Shown one piece after another: positions 12,001 to 18,000 of a DNA stretch of 64,000 bases. The DNA is taken from the IMG/VR virus record IMGVR_UViG_2718218449_000002. One strand, given 5' to 3'. Made by a program: the position numbers. Position 1 is the stretch's first letter; each line of letters starts with the position of its first letter. This DNA comes from a virus (Duplodnaviria; Heunggongvirae; Uroviricota; Caudoviricetes).

Positions 12001-15000
12001 TTCCGGCTTTGCTGCACGCCCTGATGACCTCGATTTCCCTGTTGCTCATCTCTTCGGTCAGATAGTCGCCTTCGGATGTTTTTACGACACAATAACCGCC
12101 AATGCGTGCGCCCCTGTCGACGAATGGGTTGTATTTGTGCGTGGGGGCGCAGTCAATACCGTTGGACTCGTAAATGTCCTTCTCGTAAACAAGTTTGCAT
12201 TGCCCCCACTGAATGGCTCCTGTGACCTGTGCCAGATGCAGAAGCCCCATATAACTGATATCCAGGCATACAGCCTTTTTTCGTGGTACCAGATACGCCA
12301 GCTTGCTGGCCGGGTTCAGGGTTATGCCTATGGCGGCAACATTGATGATAGCGTTCTGTGCGCTGGACAGATTTCCCCGTGCTGTGTCAGCCAGAAAGGA
12401 ATTTTTCTGGAATTGCTGAATTGCAAACTGACTTTCCTTAGCCCATGTCAGCGTCGGTTCAGTTAATGCTTCGCAGAAAAAGCGCTCCTGCTGTTTAACA
12501 AATTCAACGATATCGAACATTTTTATTGGTCCTGAAAATCAGAAAGGACAGGGGGAGAATTTCCTCTCCCATTCTTCTTCCGCCCGTGCATAGGCGATCG
12601 CTGAGATATAATCGTTGTAAGCCTCTTCCGCTTTATCGCCAGTAAGTGCCAGCTGGGCTTCTTTGGGTAAAAAAAGGCTGCTCATAAGCAATGGTTTATC
12701 GGGGAACATGCTGATAAGCTCCTGCGCCCGATCGTCAATCCATTTATCCTTTTCATCCTGAATGTGCTGATTAACCCAGCGACGCTCCTCTATTCGGTCA
12801 CAGGTGAGGTATGCGTTCATGGCGGAACTCCTGATTTCGGTTAATGCATTAAATTAATTTGTCGGGAAAGCTGACAGACAGGGCAGTCACATTCTTCCTC
12901 CTGCTCCTTAGCGAAGAAATATGCAGCGGCCTGTAATGCGATGTCTTCTGGATTTTCTGCGATAAACATAACATTGCCTTCCGTATCAATAACAGAAATA
13001 GCCTCATCAGGCAGGACAAAAAAATAGGCGATGATTTTATCATCCATAAAAACTTCACCCATTATAGTTTCTGCTGGCGTTACGACGCTTTTTACATTGA
13101 TATTAATTTTTTGATTGAGCATGATATTTCCTTTCAGGCTGGTGAGATTAACGGCTGGCCTTTATGGTTCAGGTAAACTTCTATTGCATCTGAAATAATG
13201 CGAATTTTTTCAATCAGTGAATGTGCGTAAAGTGCATTATTAACGTTAGCTGACGCCATGTAATAACGCCCGTTGTAAAGAATTGCTGTGCCGGGTTTAA
13301 CGTCCTTGCGAGAAACTAATATGGTTCCGTAGTGAGGTTTGAGCATGACAAATCCTCCGGTTAATTAATCCAGATATTTAATTTAATCCCCGATATATAA
13401 TCGGGGAGAGATTTAATTAAAGATTAACGTTGAAACCAAAGCGGGAAGATTTTTCCGATGTGCGGGAAATATCCAGCAATTTACGGCGCATTTCTTCCGT
13501 CAGATGCTTGAAGGCGTTAAATTCGGCGACAGCGGCGTCAACGTTATAGCCCTTGCTGTGTAGCTCGTTGAGGATGCGCATAGTTGGGCTTGGCATGTCG
13601 AAGAGTACGGAAGCATCAAGGCTGATAACCTTGCGATCAACATAGTTCATCGTGGCGTAGGGGTGATGCTCTGAAAACCACGATAAAGGAAAATTGATAT
13701 TCATCGCAGGAGAAGACAGAGCCAGTTGTTTCTGTTCCCATAGCTGTTTTTCCATGCGATCGAATTCAGCAATATAGGCTTCCTTGAATGCAGCTGCTTT
13801 TTTACCAGTGAAGCCCATCACCAGGAAGACGAATCCGTTTTTGGTGATTTGGTACATTGGGCGTTGTTCGCCTTTGGCGTCGGTGTAGGTAACGTCCTCA
13901 AAATTGAGGGCGTTAAATTTCTCTGAGCATTCAATATTTGCAATGGCACGTAATACGTTATCGTGTCGCTTGCAAAAATATTCGGCAACGGCAAAGGACG
14001 TAGTAACAGCGCGGCCATTGGAAATGGTGATTTCAGGTTGAGAAAGGACTGGGATAGTAGCCATAATGGCAGCCTCCTTGATTGGTGATTAATAACCACC
14101 GCAGGAGGTGAGAAGCTCGCTGGCGGTGGACTGTACAGGGTTCTCACAACTGGCAATCAAGGGAACCAGCCCGACCGAAGTCGGCCCCATACAGCCCACC
14201 ATTGATAAGATGTGCGTGTATGTCGATACAAAAAAAGACGCTGGCGCGTCTGTATCGCCTCGATTGTCAGCGGGGTGAGAATCCCGACACCCGTTTTATA
14301 AGGTGTTCGCCCAATATAGCCCCGGCATCACACGCAGTCAATACCGTCCTTTCTCGGAAATGCTTTGGCGATGTGGCAGGTGGGAGACCCATTTCGACCC
14401 GATTCGGCCTACTTATCTTCAGCAATAGTCCCTCGGGCCTCGCCGCTTTACGTGCGACATATTCCCGTCCATGAACCCTTCACCACACCCCAAAACATTC
14501 CCTGTATTGGTCAGCGCCAACTTCCTGCCAGTGTTGCCCGTTCTCACGCCGTTCTCGCTCTCGCGCGGGGATACTCTCTCATCGACCGGATCGCACCCGA
14601 TGATACAGCACGTTTACGTGTAGGGGTCTAAACAGGTCATTGACGCTGTAAAGCTCCAGATTGTTAAAGAGCATTTTGCGGCGGGTTAAGTCGCGCCGTA
14701 CGACTGATTTATGTAGCCCTGTGTAAGGGCGCGATGTTTCTGGCTTGAAATAAATATAACTTGCGGTTATTTTCATGTAAATACCGTCGGTGCTTTTTTA
14801 AGGACGAGAAATTATTACTTAACTGATTTTTAAAGTGATTTATTTTTTAAGGGGACAGATAACAGGAGGGGATATGCAAAGAAAAACCCGGCGCATGGGC
14901 CGGGCTATTTATCTGGTCCTGTTCTCATTCAGTAGAGTAGGGGCCAAGAAATCGCACTCCGTTGAAGTGAATAAGATGAGAAGGTGCATCAGCCACCCAT

Positions 15001-18000
15001 ACCTCTGTTTCCCATGCGATTTCACCAAGATATCGCCCCATGATGGAGCGATTTGGAAAAGCGGTCACATAGACAAGTCCGGCTGTTGATCCGGCAAACA
15101 GCCTGGCAAGCTCAGCATGCCGCTTCCCATCAACCGGTCCATGACTGGTGACAGACTCAACCAGTAGCAGCCAGTTTTTCGCAGTAAAATGTAGCACCAC
15201 ATCTGGCATTTTACCGTGTGAATCCACATCAACACCTAGCCCGGCCAGCAGTGGAGCGTCGAAGTAGCCCCACTTTTCGCCAGTGTCGCCAGCATAGACC
15301 AGCACGCTACCCGGAGCAAAACGTGGGGCGAAGTCCTCTATTATGGCACGGATAAGTTCGCTGTGCTCGCCGGGACTGAGGGTTATTTGCTGGCCCGCAG
15401 CAATTTCAACAGGGATACGATTCTGTTCGCGCTCCTTAGCATAGCGGGTAACCAGCGTTTCACGCTCGGCTAAATAGGTTGCAAGGCTATCGTGCCATGC
15501 CGGGCTGCCGAAAGTGCGTAGCATGGACAGAGCAGCAGGTTCGATCTGATAAACAGCCTTCGGGCTGTTCACTGGGCGATCGGGCTTGTCCGGATTGTAG
15601 AGGGCTACTCCAGCAGCGCAGAACTGATGCATAGACTGGCGGCGGAATGTCTCACGAGTATTGGGTGCGTAGACCTTGCCGTAGTGCTCCCGAACCCAAT
15701 TCATGATTGGTGTAATGCCCACAAGCGGATTTTCCGCGTCGGCCCATGCTTTTCCCGGTGTGAGGTTCAGGAGTGCCAGCAAACACAAAGCAGAACGCTC
15801 ATTCTGCTGCGCTCTGGGCAGGCCTAAGGATGCTATAATTTGCTGAGCGGCCTCAATATAATCATTTTGGTTGTTCATGCAGTCAGAGCTCCTAGCTTAG
15901 CGTCAATATGTTCTTGCGTGAGAGTTTCTTGTTGCATAGCCCACTTGCCAAGCTCTATCAGAGTGTCACGGCTTGGGTACTTAATCATCTTGAGGTCGGT
16001 TGCATTGACCTGTGTATGCCCGTTGAAGCGACGGAAATACTTATCCACTGCGGTAGTGTTCAGGAACACGGCCAAGCCACGGGCCAGCGCCTCGGGTAAC
16101 CCATGTTTGTTCTCATGAAACACGTTCATGTGATTTTCAAATCCCAACACTGAATACTCACTGAAGGTAGCAGGATCAACGACGCTTGCTACCACTCGGC
16201 GCTTTTCCTCCTTCGACGAGAAACGACGCACCACACAATAAAAACCGTTCGGGTAAAGCCACTTTTCTGTCTCGTCGTTGCGCATGATTGCGTTGGGTTT
16301 CTTCAAACCTTCCACAGGCCAGACAGTGCTACTCATACTCAAATGGCTCGGGTAGATCAGGGGAACAGTTCCTTCTTCTGGCATGCTGCGCAAATGAGCT
16401 TTCAGTCGGAAATCAACTATCGGTCCGGTCGATACCTTCACGCCAATATCAGCCAGCGAACATTGTACGGCAGATGATAACTCAATGGTGCTTTTCTCGA
16501 GCGTGGTCGGCACATGAATAAACCGCTCCGAATCGTCCGGGTACACAATCTGGTCAAATGGGTGTTCGTAGGTGACCAGGTCAAAAAAGCTATCATCGGT
16601 CGAAGTTGTGACTGTAACAGCCTCCTGACGGCCTCCACGCTCCAGGCGGATGATAATATTTTCCTGCAACACATCGTCATCCCTGAAAGCTTTGCTACGT
16701 GATTCGAACAAATGAATATGGCGGATTGCTGCCCGCTCAAGTATGAAATTACGGAACGGACGGTAATACGGTCCGTTGCAGAAACTACGTGGGATTATGG
16801 CCACTATCTGCCCGCCAGGTGCAACCTCACCTACAGCCAGTGCAACAAAGGCGGAATACAGATTTACCGTCTCGATACCGACAGTGCGAAGAGCCTGCCG
16901 GTGGGCTGACTGGCTATTGATCTTCTTGTAAGGCGGATTAAGTATTGCATGGGTATAACCTCGATCCTGTAGACCTTCGGCGGTTGCCAGCTCAATATAA
17001 TCCCCTTCGATGATGCGGGGCGTCACTCTCCTGTACCCGGTTAAGTGCTTCGCAAGGTGACCACACAGCTTTTTGTCGATTTCGTAGGCTGTTGCCTCGA
17101 CAGACTCAAAGCCAAACTCGCCAACCAGCCAACGGTCGAGGAAGGCGCAAGACAGTGCGCCTAAACCAGCGCCTGCGTCCAGTAGACGGCAAGTTTTCAT
17201 TGTGCTCGGTGGAAACAAGGAGGCCATAAAACGGGCCACGCCAGAAGGCGTCATGAACTGGCCGAACTCTGCTTTGTGTTTACGCGCGGTACGGGGAGAC
17301 AGCTCGCGACGCACGCTGTCTGCGACGTCTAGCTTTTGAAGCATAACTAATCCTCTTTACGTGGCATGATGATGCCAACGTGCTTTTGACATCCTCCACA
17401 TTCTTCAGGCGTGAAGGATGTCAAATCACTCTGTGAGCTCAATCAAAAGTCTCATCATTCCACTGCGATTTGATGACCTTTCCGACAAACTGGCAGTTTT
17501 CGTTACACTCAATCATGTCGAATCGTGGGTTGAGCGGCTCCAGGTACGCTTTACCGCTCTCACGAATGAATCGTTTGAAGGTAAATTCATCGCCGTTCAT
17601 TCGGGCCACGCAAAAATCGCCATCCTCGATTTCCCGTTCAGGGTCAACGAGTATCAGCATACCTTCAGGGAAGCTGGGTTTACCACCCTGCGGTGCGGTC
17701 ATTGAATGCCCCTTGACCTCCAGCCAGAACGACCTGTCACTGGCTTTTGTGGTGGTGGAGATCCATTTAATCGCATCTTTTGCGGTGTACGAAATATCAT
17801 CCATTGAGAATGCGCCAGCTTGTACGCAGGAGAGTAACGGATATTCGTAAGCGGGGACACGAGTTAATGGCTCTTCAATTGCGAGCGCCATTTCTGCAAT
17901 AGATTTTGCCAGGCTGGGACTGAAATCTCCGACCTTTACATTCAGTATCTTAGCAAGCTGTGCTGCGTGGCTGGCATTTATGGCGTTGATGCCAGCCATT

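What the first reader, a model, noticed from the sequence alone, without database searches (positions are those of the whole stretch)
14878..17438. Restriction-modification cassette in the rexAB slot, co-oriented with cI
A gamma-class N6-adenine methyltransferase (motifs X, I, NPPY) and a 317-aa partner whose start overlaps the methylase stop (ATGA) lie immediately downstream of cI on the same strand, ending at an intrinsic terminator (14878..14904) just before the candidate PL. This mirrors lambda PRM-cI-rexA-rexB-t-imm, so the pair would be expressed in the lysogen as a conversion defense. An 11-bp perfect inverted repeat with 19-nt spacer (17385..17425) between cI and the methylase could set the cI to R-M expression ratio.
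Basis: partly seen in the sequence, partly recalled or inferred. Interest (0 to 1): 0.75.

Follow-up and report, generated by a model that had tools for sequence, protein, structure and literature searches.

The report
Known PstI-type restriction-modification system, EcoGIII

Summary
Observation confirmed; interpretation supported; already known. On the minus strand lie cI (17439-18152), a 94-nt spacer with two hairpins, a 489-aa gamma-class m6A methyltransferase (15875-17344), a 317-aa BsuBI/PstI-family endonuclease (14925-15878) that starts in an ATGA overlap, an intrinsic terminator (14885-14906), then a PL-like promoter (14781-14753). The region is 100% identical to Stx2a phages PA2, PA8 and VT2phi_272. 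M, R and cI are 100% identical in protein to phage P13374 of the 2011 O104:H4 outbreak. This is EcoGIII. According to papers that cite Fang et al. 2012, it methylates and cleaves CTGCAG in lysogens, restricts lambda-like phages and changes host transcription. Co-transcription with cI fits the sequence (no terminator, no good promoter in between) but is not shown. New here: the M-R unit with its ATGA junction recurs across many phyla, never beside cI in the 78 loci examined. Natural decay variants lose R, or R and M together, never M alone. The inverted repeat is one copy of a dispersed ~42-nt hairpin family, which in three independent cases lies upstream of a TnpB gene or an IS607-type tnpA-tnpB pair. 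It therefore looks more like a mobile-element relic than a purpose-built regulator.

The parts
14875..14906 (-). Intrinsic terminator that closes the cI-M-R unit (AGCCCGGC-CCATGC-GCCGGGTT, then TTTCTTTG)
   Evidence: 8 pairs, 6 G-C, T-rich tail; -14.5 kcal/mol. The heteroimmune phage PV11-77 has a different but equivalent terminator directly after R.
14925..15878 (-). ecoGIIIR: 317-aa BsuBI/PstI-family type IIP restriction endonuclease. N-terminal HTH recognition domain plus C-terminal PD-(D/E)XK domain, with D226, E241 and T244
   Evidence: Pfam PF17728 at 1.2e-54 and PF06616 at 4.6e-61. PADLOC REase_II at 1.6e-168. SdaI 2ixs at 1.2e-77. 100% aa identity to P13374 ORF30. Motif conservation.
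15875..15878 (-). ATGA overlap of the M stop codon and the R start codon (translational coupling)
   Evidence: A 4-nt ATGA overlap was called in 31 of 78 homologous loci, and about 20 more show ATGA at the junction with the inferred R start one codon off.
15875..17344 (-). ecoGIIIM: 489-aa gamma-class N6-adenine DNA methyltransferase (target CTGCAG according to the literature)
   Evidence: PADLOC MTase_II PDLC03227 at 5e-248. Pfam Eco57I at 3.3e-9. Motifs X, I, II and NPPY in gamma order. 100% aa identity to P13374 ORF31.
17351..17357 (-). Shine-Dalgarno sequence AAGAGGA of the M gene; its GAGG core ends 7 nt before the ATG
   Evidence: Read.
17359..17381 (-). Second, weaker hairpin (9 pairs with a bulge). 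It overlaps a weak extended -10-like TGgCATCAT
   Evidence: It is not well conserved: the PV11-77 lineage and L102 carry changes in it.
17385..17425 (.). Inverted repeat or hairpin (16-bp stem on the cI-sense strand, no U tract). It is a solo member of a dispersed ~42-nt hairpin family with arms TTTGACATCCTCC/GGAGGATGTCAAA
   Evidence: Family evidence. The deletion in PhiR12_3 ends exactly at its foot.
17439..18152 (-). cI repressor (HTH_3 plus Peptidase_S24), directly upstream and co-oriented
   Evidence: 100% aa identity to P13374 cI.
14753..14781 (-). Candidate PL (TTTACA-17-TATATT)
   Evidence: Homology with the heteroimmune phage PV11-77 resumes at 14747, about 6 nt after the -10 box, and PV11-77 has TATATT at the same offset. 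phi80 has its O-L region just upstream of the homologous leader.
18195..18451 (+). Candidate PR (TTGACA-17-AATGAT, 18195-18223) and cro (18248-18451), which bound the immunity region on the other side
   Evidence: Pfam Cro at 4.8e-34. The cro start is placed as annotated in PhiR12_3 and ArgO145.

Best explanation
This is the EcoGIII type IIP restriction-modification system, a PstI isoschizomer that recognises CTGCAG and makes m6A. It sits inside the immunity region of an Eru1/PST2-type Stx2a-converting phage.

Shown here or in the literature:
- M.EcoGIII methylates CTGCAG throughout the lysogen chromosome.
- R.EcoGIII has an SdaI-like build, with an N-terminal HTH recognition domain and a C-terminal PD-(D/E)XK nuclease. 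It cleaves unmethylated CTGCAG on incoming phage and plasmid DNA.

Inferred from the sequence:
- In the lysogen the pair is transcribed as the tail of the cI message. Nothing terminates transcription between cI and M, and one terminator follows R.
- M is translated from its own Shine-Dalgarno sequence.
- R is translated by coupling at the ATGA overlap. Rare codons 15, 21 and 22 may damp it further, keeping R below M.
- As with other type II systems, losing M while R persists would be lethal, so the pair also stabilises the prophage.

Origin of the parts:
- The M-R unit is an old, very widely transferred 2.4-kb cassette that landed in the cI-PL cargo slot.
- The inverted repeat upstream of M is most likely a relic hairpin of the kind found near IS200/IS605/IS607-type TnpB elements. 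It may incidentally affect read-through or mRNA processing.
For: Identity:
- 100% DNA identity to PA2, PA8, VT2phi_272 and phi346, and 99.9% to O104:H4 phages.
- M, R and cI proteins are identical to those of P13374.
- The rare-codon positions listed for EcoGIII (R: AUA15, CCC21, AGA22; M: CUA5, CCC17) match this sequence.
- Domain and structure matches; motifs.

Function, from papers:
- CTGC(m6A)G was 100% methylated in two O111:H- STEC strains carrying a homologue 99.7% similar to M.EcoGIII. EcoGIII is cited there as shown to methylate and cleave CTGCAG and to protect against lambda-like phages.
- 98.8% methylation in RM13514 against 0% in a strain without the cassette.
- EcoGIII in recipient cells lowers pESBL transfer.
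- Deleting the R-M system changes expression of more than 38% of genes.

Operon reading:
- No terminator-like site on the minus strand between 17344 and 17439.
- No promoter match above 8 of 12 in that stretch.
- The block from the cI C-terminal domain through the hairpins, M and R is contiguous at 95.5% identity in a heteroimmune phage.

Coupling: most of the 78 homologous loci have the ATGA junction (31 called outright, about 20 more with the inferred start one codon off).

Decay pattern:
- ArgO145 has a +1 frameshift in R with M intact.
- PhiR12_3 lost M and two thirds of R together.
- Among the handful of variant records examined, none had lost M while keeping an intact R. TL-2011c has a frameshift at M codon 30 with a restart at Met31. 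A foreshortened M of unspecified extent is reported active in RM13514.
Against: - Co-transcription with cI has not been demonstrated anywhere I could read. The primary paper, Fang et al. 2012, is not in the held library, so its results are taken from papers that cite it.
- A -22 kcal/mol hairpin lies between cI and M and could attenuate read-through.
- A weak extended -10-like TGgCATCAT (17380-17369) could give M its own low-level promoter.
- The canonical PD-(D/E)XK lysine (SdaI K251) is a threonine here (T244). This is invariant in all 80 sequences of the subfamily alignment, and the enzyme is reported active, so it is a family trait and not a defect.
Confidence: 0.88

Rival explanations
1. 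The R-M pair is expressed from its own weak constitutive promoter in the cI-M spacer. The hairpin after cI ends or processes the cI message, so R-M expression does not depend on the lysogenic switch.
For: - A strong hairpin lies 13 nt after the cI stop codon.
- An extended -10-like TGgCATCAT at 17380-17369 would start a transcript about 18 nt before the M ATG.
- None of the 78 M-R loci examined in bacterial genomes sits next to a cI gene.
Against: - The hairpin has no U tract, and no terminator-like site was called on the minus strand there.
- The best -35/-10 combinations in the spacer reach only 8 of 12.
- In Serratia nevei the M gene starts about 10 nt after the preceding gene, so the cassette is normally read through from upstream.
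Confidence: 0.25
2. The cassette is kept mainly as a selfish addiction module or an epigenetic regulator of the host, and defence is a by-product.
For: - Deleting the R-M system changes expression of more than 38% of genes and influences growth.
- ArgO145 keeps M after R was frameshifted.
- R and M are lost together in PhiR12_3.
- Eru1 lysogens are very unstable, so a stabilising module would pay.
Against: - Restriction of lambda-like phages and of plasmid entry is reported.
- The slot also holds other defence or toxin-antitoxin cargo in relatives.
- The readings are not mutually exclusive.
Confidence: 0.3
3. The inverted repeat 17385-17425 is a dedicated regulatory element that sets the cI to R-M ratio, for example an RNase III site or an attenuator.
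For: - The stem is invariant while the loop differs in four lineages.
- There is a G-U wobble on the cI-sense strand, and the hairpin is more stable on that strand: -22.0 against -17.8 kcal/mol.
- It lies exactly between the two cistron groups.
Against: - The same arms occur in 58 unrelated metagenome stretches and in an unrelated phage tail operon, with unrelated flanks and neighbours.
- Three independent copies lie upstream of a TnpB gene or an IS607-type tnpA-tnpB pair: L146, L112/L129 (one locus recovered twice) and L123. The end hairpins of the Gifsy-1 gipA element also score with the family model.
- The PhiR12_3 deletion ends exactly at its foot, as expected for a recombination joint.
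Confidence: 0.2

Closest known systems
EcoGIII R-M system of the Stx2a prophage (phiStx104 / P13374) of E. coli O104:H4 (Fang et al. 2012, as cited in PMC6602927 and PMC3893438)
   Same: M, R and cI proteins are 100% identical to P13374 and the DNA is 99.9% identical over 3.7 kb. Gene order, spacer, terminator and rare-codon positions are the same.
   Different: Nothing of substance. This window is the PA2/PA8/VT2phi_272 (PST2, O157:H7-type) version of the same phage module.
PstI (Providencia stuartii), BsuBI (Bacillus subtilis) and SdaI (Streptomyces) restriction enzymes; Pfam PF06616 and PF17728
   Same: Both Pfam domains match over their full length. The match to the SdaI crystal-structure sequence has E = 1.2e-77 over residues 8-315. 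The family is classed as PD-(D/E)XK. CTGCAG is also the core of the SdaI site CCTGCAGG (from my own knowledge).
   Different: T244 replaces the SdaI catalytic K251, and it is invariant in all 80 sequences of the subfamily alignment. The genes here are tandem, M then R, with an ATGA overlap. From memory and not checked here, the pstI genes are divergent. Percent identity to PstI and BsuBI themselves was not measured.
Lambda rexA-rexB (PRM-cI-rexA-rexB-timm)
   Same: Same slot: downstream of cI, on the same strand, closed by a terminator just before OL/PL. Both are lysogen-expressed genes that exclude other phages.
   Different: No homology. Restriction of foreign DNA, not abortive infection. 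Co-transcription from PRM is inferred here, not shown. This phage type lacks N, cII and cIII.
End hairpins of IS200/IS605/IS607-family TnpB elements (for example Gifsy-1 gipA and the E. coli ybhB-linked InsQ/TnpB element)
   Same: The inverted repeat shares its arms and loop type with a family whose copies lie upstream of a TnpB gene or a tnpA-tnpB pair (L146, L112). The family model scores the Gifsy-1 gipA end hairpins at 33.4 and 19.1 bits.
   Different: No tnpB or tnpA gene is present here. Similarity of the sequence after the hairpin to a TnpB left end is weak: it beats 1996 of 2000 shuffles against L091, but is not significant against the E. coli element.

Membership tests
BsuBI/PstI-family type IIP restriction endonuclease | Both family domains (N-terminal HTH recognition domain, C-terminal catalytic domain) score above Pfam gathering thresholds | tested here: met
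   PF17728 at 184.4 bits (cut-off 27), covering 3-139 of 140. PF06616 at 205.2 bits (cut-off 27), covering 1-153 of 154.
BsuBI/PstI-family type IIP restriction endonuclease | PD-(D/E)XK catalytic residues, taken from the SdaI positions D233, E248 and K251 (recalled from the SdaI structure paper, which was not read here) | tested here: inconclusive
   D226 and E241 are conserved. The lysine position is T244, which is invariant in all 80 sequences of the subfamily alignment. The enzyme is reported biochemically active, so the subfamily must use a variant motif.
BsuBI/PstI-family type IIP restriction endonuclease | Cleaves CTGCAG | not testable with these tools
   Reported for the O104:H4 C227-11 enzyme by papers that cite Fang 2012. 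The R protein here is identical to that of the O104:H4 outbreak phage P13374.
Gamma-class N6-adenine DNA methyltransferase | Motif order X, I, II, IV (NPPY), followed by a C-terminal target-recognition domain | tested here: met
   GQFMTP at 28-33, DAGAGLG at 56-62, E88/D90, NPPY at 136-139. Full-length match to a PADLOC type II MTase model at 5e-248.
Gamma-class N6-adenine DNA methyltransferase | Produces m6A at CTGCAG in the lysogen | not testable with these tools
   SMRT methylomes of strains carrying the cassette or a 99.7%-similar homologue show 98.8-100% methylation, against 0% in a strain without it.
EcoGIII (the named system) | Sequence identity with the O104:H4 Stx2a-phage genes | tested here: met
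   No amino-acid differences in M, R or cI compared with P13374. The rare-codon pattern matches the EcoGIII entry tabulated from REBASE.
Lambda rex-like lysogenic-conversion cassette in the immunity region | Lies between cI and OL/PL on the cI strand and ends at a terminator | tested here: met
   The immunity-specific segments (14747-14906 and 17850-18467) flank it in the comparison with PV11-77.
Lambda rex-like lysogenic-conversion cassette in the immunity region | Co-transcribed with cI from PRM | not testable with these tools
   Only consistent: no terminator and no good promoter between cI and M.
Lambda rex-like lysogenic-conversion cassette in the immunity region | Homology to RexA/RexB | tested here: not met
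   The Pfam and PADLOC matches are R-M families only. It is an analogue by position, not a member.
C-protein-controlled type II R-M systems | A small HTH controller gene and a C-box upstream of R | tested here: not met
   No ORF lies between cI, M and R: the spacer is 94 nt and M and R overlap.
IS200/IS605/IS607-end-like hairpin family (for the inverted repeat) | Matches the covariance model built from the dispersed copies; the stem is supported by covariation | tested here: met
   56 bits, E = 3e-11. The window-type sequence was in the seed alignment, so this match is partly by construction. The family's inner stem has 42 double-change cells against 14.8 +/- 3.0 in shuffles, 0 of 500.
IS200/IS605/IS607-end-like hairpin family (for the inverted repeat) | Adjacent transposase (tnpA or tnpB) | tested here: not met
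   None in the window. Only three independent copies have a TnpB hit nearby, four of 67 loci with L112 and L129 being the same locus. Most copies are solo.

The most novel reading that the evidence does not exclude
The hairpin after cI is a solo end, or miniature derivative, of a TnpB-type (IS200/IS605/IS607) element. It serves both as the recombination joint through which defence cargo (R-M, and in relatives other cassettes) is swapped into the cI-PL slot, and as an RNA structure that uncouples cI and R-M expression. The dispersed ~42-nt hairpin family (TTTGACATCCTCCCCGCCCTAAAGGGCGGGGAGGATGTCAAA) would then be an undescribed REP- or MITE-like element present in many phyla.
Probability: 0.2. 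Interest if true: 0.4.

Novelty: already known. Interest (0 to 1): 0.12.

Why it matters
The system matters biologically. It is a prophage-borne restriction-modification system in the Stx2a phages of high-virulence E. coli (the O104:H4 outbreak strain and O157:H7 PST2 strains). It rewrites the host methylome, blocks other phages and plasmids, and reportedly shifts host gene expression. All of that has been published since 2012, so this finding adds no new kind of system.

- Cassette borders.
- Conservation of the ATGA-coupled M-R unit across phyla.
- Natural decay variants.
- A likely mobile-element origin for the hairpin between cI and M.

Whether M and R ride on the cI transcript is still untested. 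It would decide whether restriction is tied to the lysogenic switch.

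Tried and rejected
- **Primary paper.** I tried to read Fang et al. 2012 by DOI and by PMC id. It is not held, so its results are cited second-hand.
- **Transcript evidence.** A literature search for transcriptome evidence of a cI-M-R transcript found nothing.
- **Operators.** I looked for cI operators shared by the OR and OL regions. The best 17-mers match at 13 of 17 positions, and by my estimate about three such pairs are expected by chance, so no claim is made. 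Yin et al. also failed to find operators in this phage type.
- **PL leader.** I tested whether the PL leader (14440-14747) is a structured RNA. It is not distinguishable from shuffles (z = -0.74).
- **Rfam.** Nothing matched the spacer hairpins or the dispersed hairpin family beyond spurious microRNA-like hits.
- **Spacer as TnpB remnant.** I tested whether the sequence after the hairpin is a TnpB left-end remnant. It is significant only against one contig (L091) and not against the E. coli element, so this stays a lead.
- **PhiR12_3 filler.** The 160-bp filler in the PhiR12_3 deletion matched only a satellite-like island and explained nothing.
- **Expensive tools left unused.** I did not run the large protein searches or structure prediction, because the Pfam, PADLOC and PDB sequence matches and the 100% identity to a characterised system already settle identity.

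Full report
**What is at the locus**

On the minus strand the ORF list gives three co-oriented genes:
- cI at 17439..18152 (237 aa).
- A 489-aa ORF at 15875..17344.
- A 317-aa ORF at 14925..15878.

The last two share the four bases 15875-15878, read as ATGA. cI carries HTH_3 and Peptidase_S24 domains, and a Cro homologue is transcribed divergently from it.

After the 317-aa ORF comes a terminator-like hairpin: minus strand 14906..14885, 8 pairs of which 6 are G-C, followed by TTTCTTTG (-14.5 kcal/mol). About 100 nt further on is a promoter-like TTTACA-17-TATATT at 14781..14753.

Between cI and the 489-aa ORF lie 94 nt holding the reported inverted repeat (17385-17399 with 17411-17425) and a second, weaker hairpin (17359-17381). 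The spacer folds better than every one of 200 shuffles (z = -3.85).

**What the two proteins are**

The 317-aa protein:
- It matches both Pfam domains of the BsuBI/PstI endonuclease family over their full lengths (4.6e-61 and 1.2e-54).
- It matches a PADLOC type II REase model at 1.6e-168.
- It matches the sequence of the SdaI crystal structure 2ixs at 1.2e-77. That family is classed as PD-(D/E)XK.
- D226 and E241 align with SdaI D233 and E248. The SdaI lysine 251 is a threonine here, and it is invariant in all 80 sequences of the subfamily alignment.

The 489-aa protein:
- It matches a PADLOC type II methyltransferase model end to end (5e-248).
- Its motifs run in gamma-class order: GQFMTP at 28-33, DAGAGLG at 56-62, E88/D90, NPPY at 136-139.

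**Which system it is**

The 3.7-kb region is 100% identical to Stx2a phages PA2, PA8, VT2phi_272 and phi346. It is 99.9% identical to the O104:H4 outbreak phages P13374 and phiON-2011. It occurs in 147 of 5426 complete E. coli genomes, always on the chromosome. The M, R and cI proteins have no amino-acid difference from those of P13374.

The literature names this system EcoGIII:
[quoted passage not shown] It is said to be Stx-phage-borne, to protect against lambda-like phages and to affect about 1,950 genes (Forde et al. 2019, PMC6602927, citing Fang et al. 2012).
- Cooper et al. 2014 (PMC3893438) found 98.8% of CTGCAG sites methylated in a strain carrying the cassette and 0% in a sister strain without it. 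They state that the R gene is identical to the biochemically active one from C227-11.
- Yin et al. 2015 (PMC4587872) describe the bsuBI R-M system in the early regulatory region of PST2 phages (PA2, PA8).
- Yamaichi et al. (PMC4288162) show that EcoGIII in recipient cells lowers plasmid transfer.
- The rare-codon positions tabulated for EcoGIII by Mruk et al. (PMC6456624) match this sequence exactly.

The primary paper could not be read.

**How it probably works**

Shown, for identical proteins or homologues at least 99.7% similar, in the papers above: CTGCAG is methylated in lysogens, and unmodified phage and plasmid DNA is restricted.

Inferred from the sequence:
- Transcription. No terminator-like site lies on the minus strand between cI and M, no promoter match there exceeds 8 of 12, and a single terminator follows R. 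The simplest reading is a PRM-cI-M-R transcript, as in lambda cI-rexA-rexB.
- Translation. M has its own AAGAGGA Shine-Dalgarno sequence, and R starts in the ATGA overlap.

The alternative is that the strong hairpin attenuates the cI message and a weak extended -10 (TGgCATCAT, 17380-17369) drives M. This cannot be excluded.

**Comparative anatomy**

Heteroimmune relative. Stx2_PV11-77 shares 14906-17850 at 95.5% identity: R, M, both hairpins and the C-terminal half of cI. It shares 14486-14747 at 100%. It differs in 14747-14906 and in 17850-18467.
- These two differing segments are the immunity-specific parts: OL/PL on one side, and the cI N-terminal domain, OR and cro on the other.
- The junction inside cI falls near residue 101, between the HTH and S24 domains.
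- Both phages have a TATATT -10 box at the same offset from where the shared leader starts. This supports the PL assignment.
- PV11-77 carries two further genes between its R terminator and PL: a Panacea-domain antitoxin homologue and a small membrane protein.

Other occupants of the slot. phi80 has gene 40A/40B there, and HK106 and mEp234 have hicAB around cI. The slot is a general cargo site.

The M-R unit elsewhere. In one-genome-per-species bacterial contigs the R protein has close relatives, 69-94% identical among the best 80 of at least 598. They span Chloroflexota, Cyanobacteria, Acidobacteriota, Verrucomicrobiota, many Proteobacteria and Paenibacillus.
- In all 78 loci that retain enough upstream sequence (of the best 80), M lies directly upstream of R.
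- No cI homologue was found in any of them.
- Most have the ATGA junction: 31 were called outright and about 20 more with the inferred start one codon off.
- The coupled M-R unit is therefore ancestral, and it was captured by the phage.

**Natural decay variants**

- ArgO145 has one extra C after 15267, which frameshifts R before its catalytic motif. M is intact.
- TL-2011c has one extra base after 17253, so M restarts at Met31. A foreshortened M, of unspecified extent, is reported active in RM13514.
- PhiR12_3 and three IMG/VR contigs lack 15242-17384, that is M plus two thirds of R, and have 160 unrelated bases in its place.

Among the handful of variant records examined, none had lost M while keeping an intact R. 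That is the pattern expected if R without M is lethal.

**The inverted repeat**

Within the phage lineages:
- The stem is identical in all of them, while the loop differs: GCCTGAAGAAT here, one extra C in PV11-77, GCCTGCAGAAT in some relatives (which creates a CTGCAG site), and GTCCTTTGGGGC in PhiR12_3.
- On the cI-sense strand the one imperfect position is a G-U wobble, and the hairpin is more stable there: -22.0 against -17.8 kcal/mol.
- The PhiR12_3 deletion ends exactly at its foot.

Outside the phage lineages:
- An exact-arm search (TTTGACATCCT-N10-30-AGGATGTCAAA) found 20 viral contigs, of which 18 are this phage type.
- It also found 65 metagenome stretches, of which 58 are in unrelated contexts with unrelated flanks. 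Their neighbours are housekeeping genes of many taxa.
- Across all fetched loci there are about 40 distinct hairpin sequences, with consensus TTTGACATCCTCCCCGCCCTAAAGGGCGGGGAGGATGTCAAA.
- The inner stem, which the search pattern did not constrain, covaries: 42 double-change cells against 14.8 +/- 3.0 in shuffles, 0 of 500.

Link to transposable elements:
- One copy lies 126 nt upstream of a TnpB gene.
- Another lies about 320 nt upstream of an IS607-type serine-recombinase tnpA followed by tnpB. This locus was recovered twice, as L112 and L129.
- A third contig, L123, has a partial TnpB hit near its copy.
- A covariance model of the family scores the two end hairpins of the Gifsy-1 gipA (TnpB) element at 33.4 bits (E = 1e-5) and 19.1 bits.
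- The model finds only this one copy in the window.
- In an unrelated phage contig (L091) the same hairpin sits between tail genes, next to the left end of a gipA-type element whose tnpB body is missing.

The repeat is thus most likely a solo relic of such an element or of a miniature derivative. A side effect on cI versus R-M expression remains possible but is untested.

**Verdict**

The system is already known and named, so interest is low. The only open items are the transcript structure and the nature of the hairpin family.

Noticed in passing
window 17385-17425; loci L091, L111-L175: The cI-M inverted repeat belongs to a dispersed family of ~42-nt hairpins (arms TTTGACATCCTCC/GGAGGATGTCAAA, loop usually CTAAAG or CTGAAG). 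It was found in 58 unrelated metagenome stretches. The inner stem covaries, three independent copies lie upstream of a TnpB gene or an IS607-type tnpA-tnpB pair, and no Rfam family matches.
   Followed up: partly
L098, L099, L122, L149, L163 (relatives of window 17400-17410): In some otherwise about 99% identical phages the hairpin loop reads GCCTGCAGAAT, not GCCTGAAGAAT. This places an EcoGIII/PstI recognition site in the loop just upstream of the M gene. Whether it gives methylation-dependent autoregulation is unknown.
   Followed up: no
window 14119-14306 (-) and 2164-2346 (-): There are two copies of an isrK sRNA plus C4 antisense RNA pair (Rfam 58.7/77.1 and 53/70.1 bits). The first copy lies in the PL operon just upstream of a Rha-family antirepressor-like gene (13417-14064), in a P1 immI-like arrangement.
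   Followed up: no
window 14400-14747 (-): The PL leader is 100% shared with a heteroimmune Stx phage and about 94% identical to the phi80 leader between O-L and gene N. No N gene follows here, and Eru1 phages are reported to lack N, cII and cIII. The leader is not detectably structured (z = -0.74).
   Followed up: partly
L002 2939-3789 (Stx2_PV11-77; corresponds to an insertion between window 14747 and 14906): A heteroimmune relative carries an extra gene pair between the R-M terminator and PL: a 156-aa Panacea-domain (SocA-like) antitoxin homologue (PF13274, 4.5e-22) and a 127-aa membrane protein. It has its own terminator. This is a second cargo in the same slot.
   Followed up: partly
window 15267 and 17253; L084, L085, L001: Natural variants: ArgO145 has a +1 frameshift in R with M intact, TL-2011c has a +1 frameshift at M codon 30 with a restart at Met31, and PhiR12_3 has M and two thirds of R replaced by 160 bp.
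   Followed up: yes
window 14925-15878; loci L004-L083: The R protein is unusually conserved for a restriction enzyme (69-94% identity across many phyla) and more conserved than its M partner (54-84%). The hits were ranked by R similarity, which biases this comparison. The canonical catalytic lysine position is an invariant threonine.
   Followed up: partly
window 1-64000: There are only 11 CTGCAG sites, none before 21242. About 15.7 are expected from base composition and 25.5 from a maximal-order Markov estimate, so avoidance in the phage that carries the enzyme is mild.
   Followed up: partly
window 18156-18172, 14754-14770, 14859-14875: Three 17-mers of the form ATAT..C.....GTTAT (13 of 17 matches) lie next to the cI start, over the PL -10 box and just after the R-M terminator. 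They are candidate operators, but by my estimate about three such pairs are expected by chance.
   Followed up: partly
window 23915-25831, 30494-30610, 45445-45561: Rfam finds three tRNAs, STnc100 and the anti-stx2 sRNA AsxR next to each other, plus two ALIL frameshift pseudoknots on opposite strands (IS3-family insertion sequences). This fits an IS-bearing Stx2a phage of the PA2/PA8 type.
   Followed up: no
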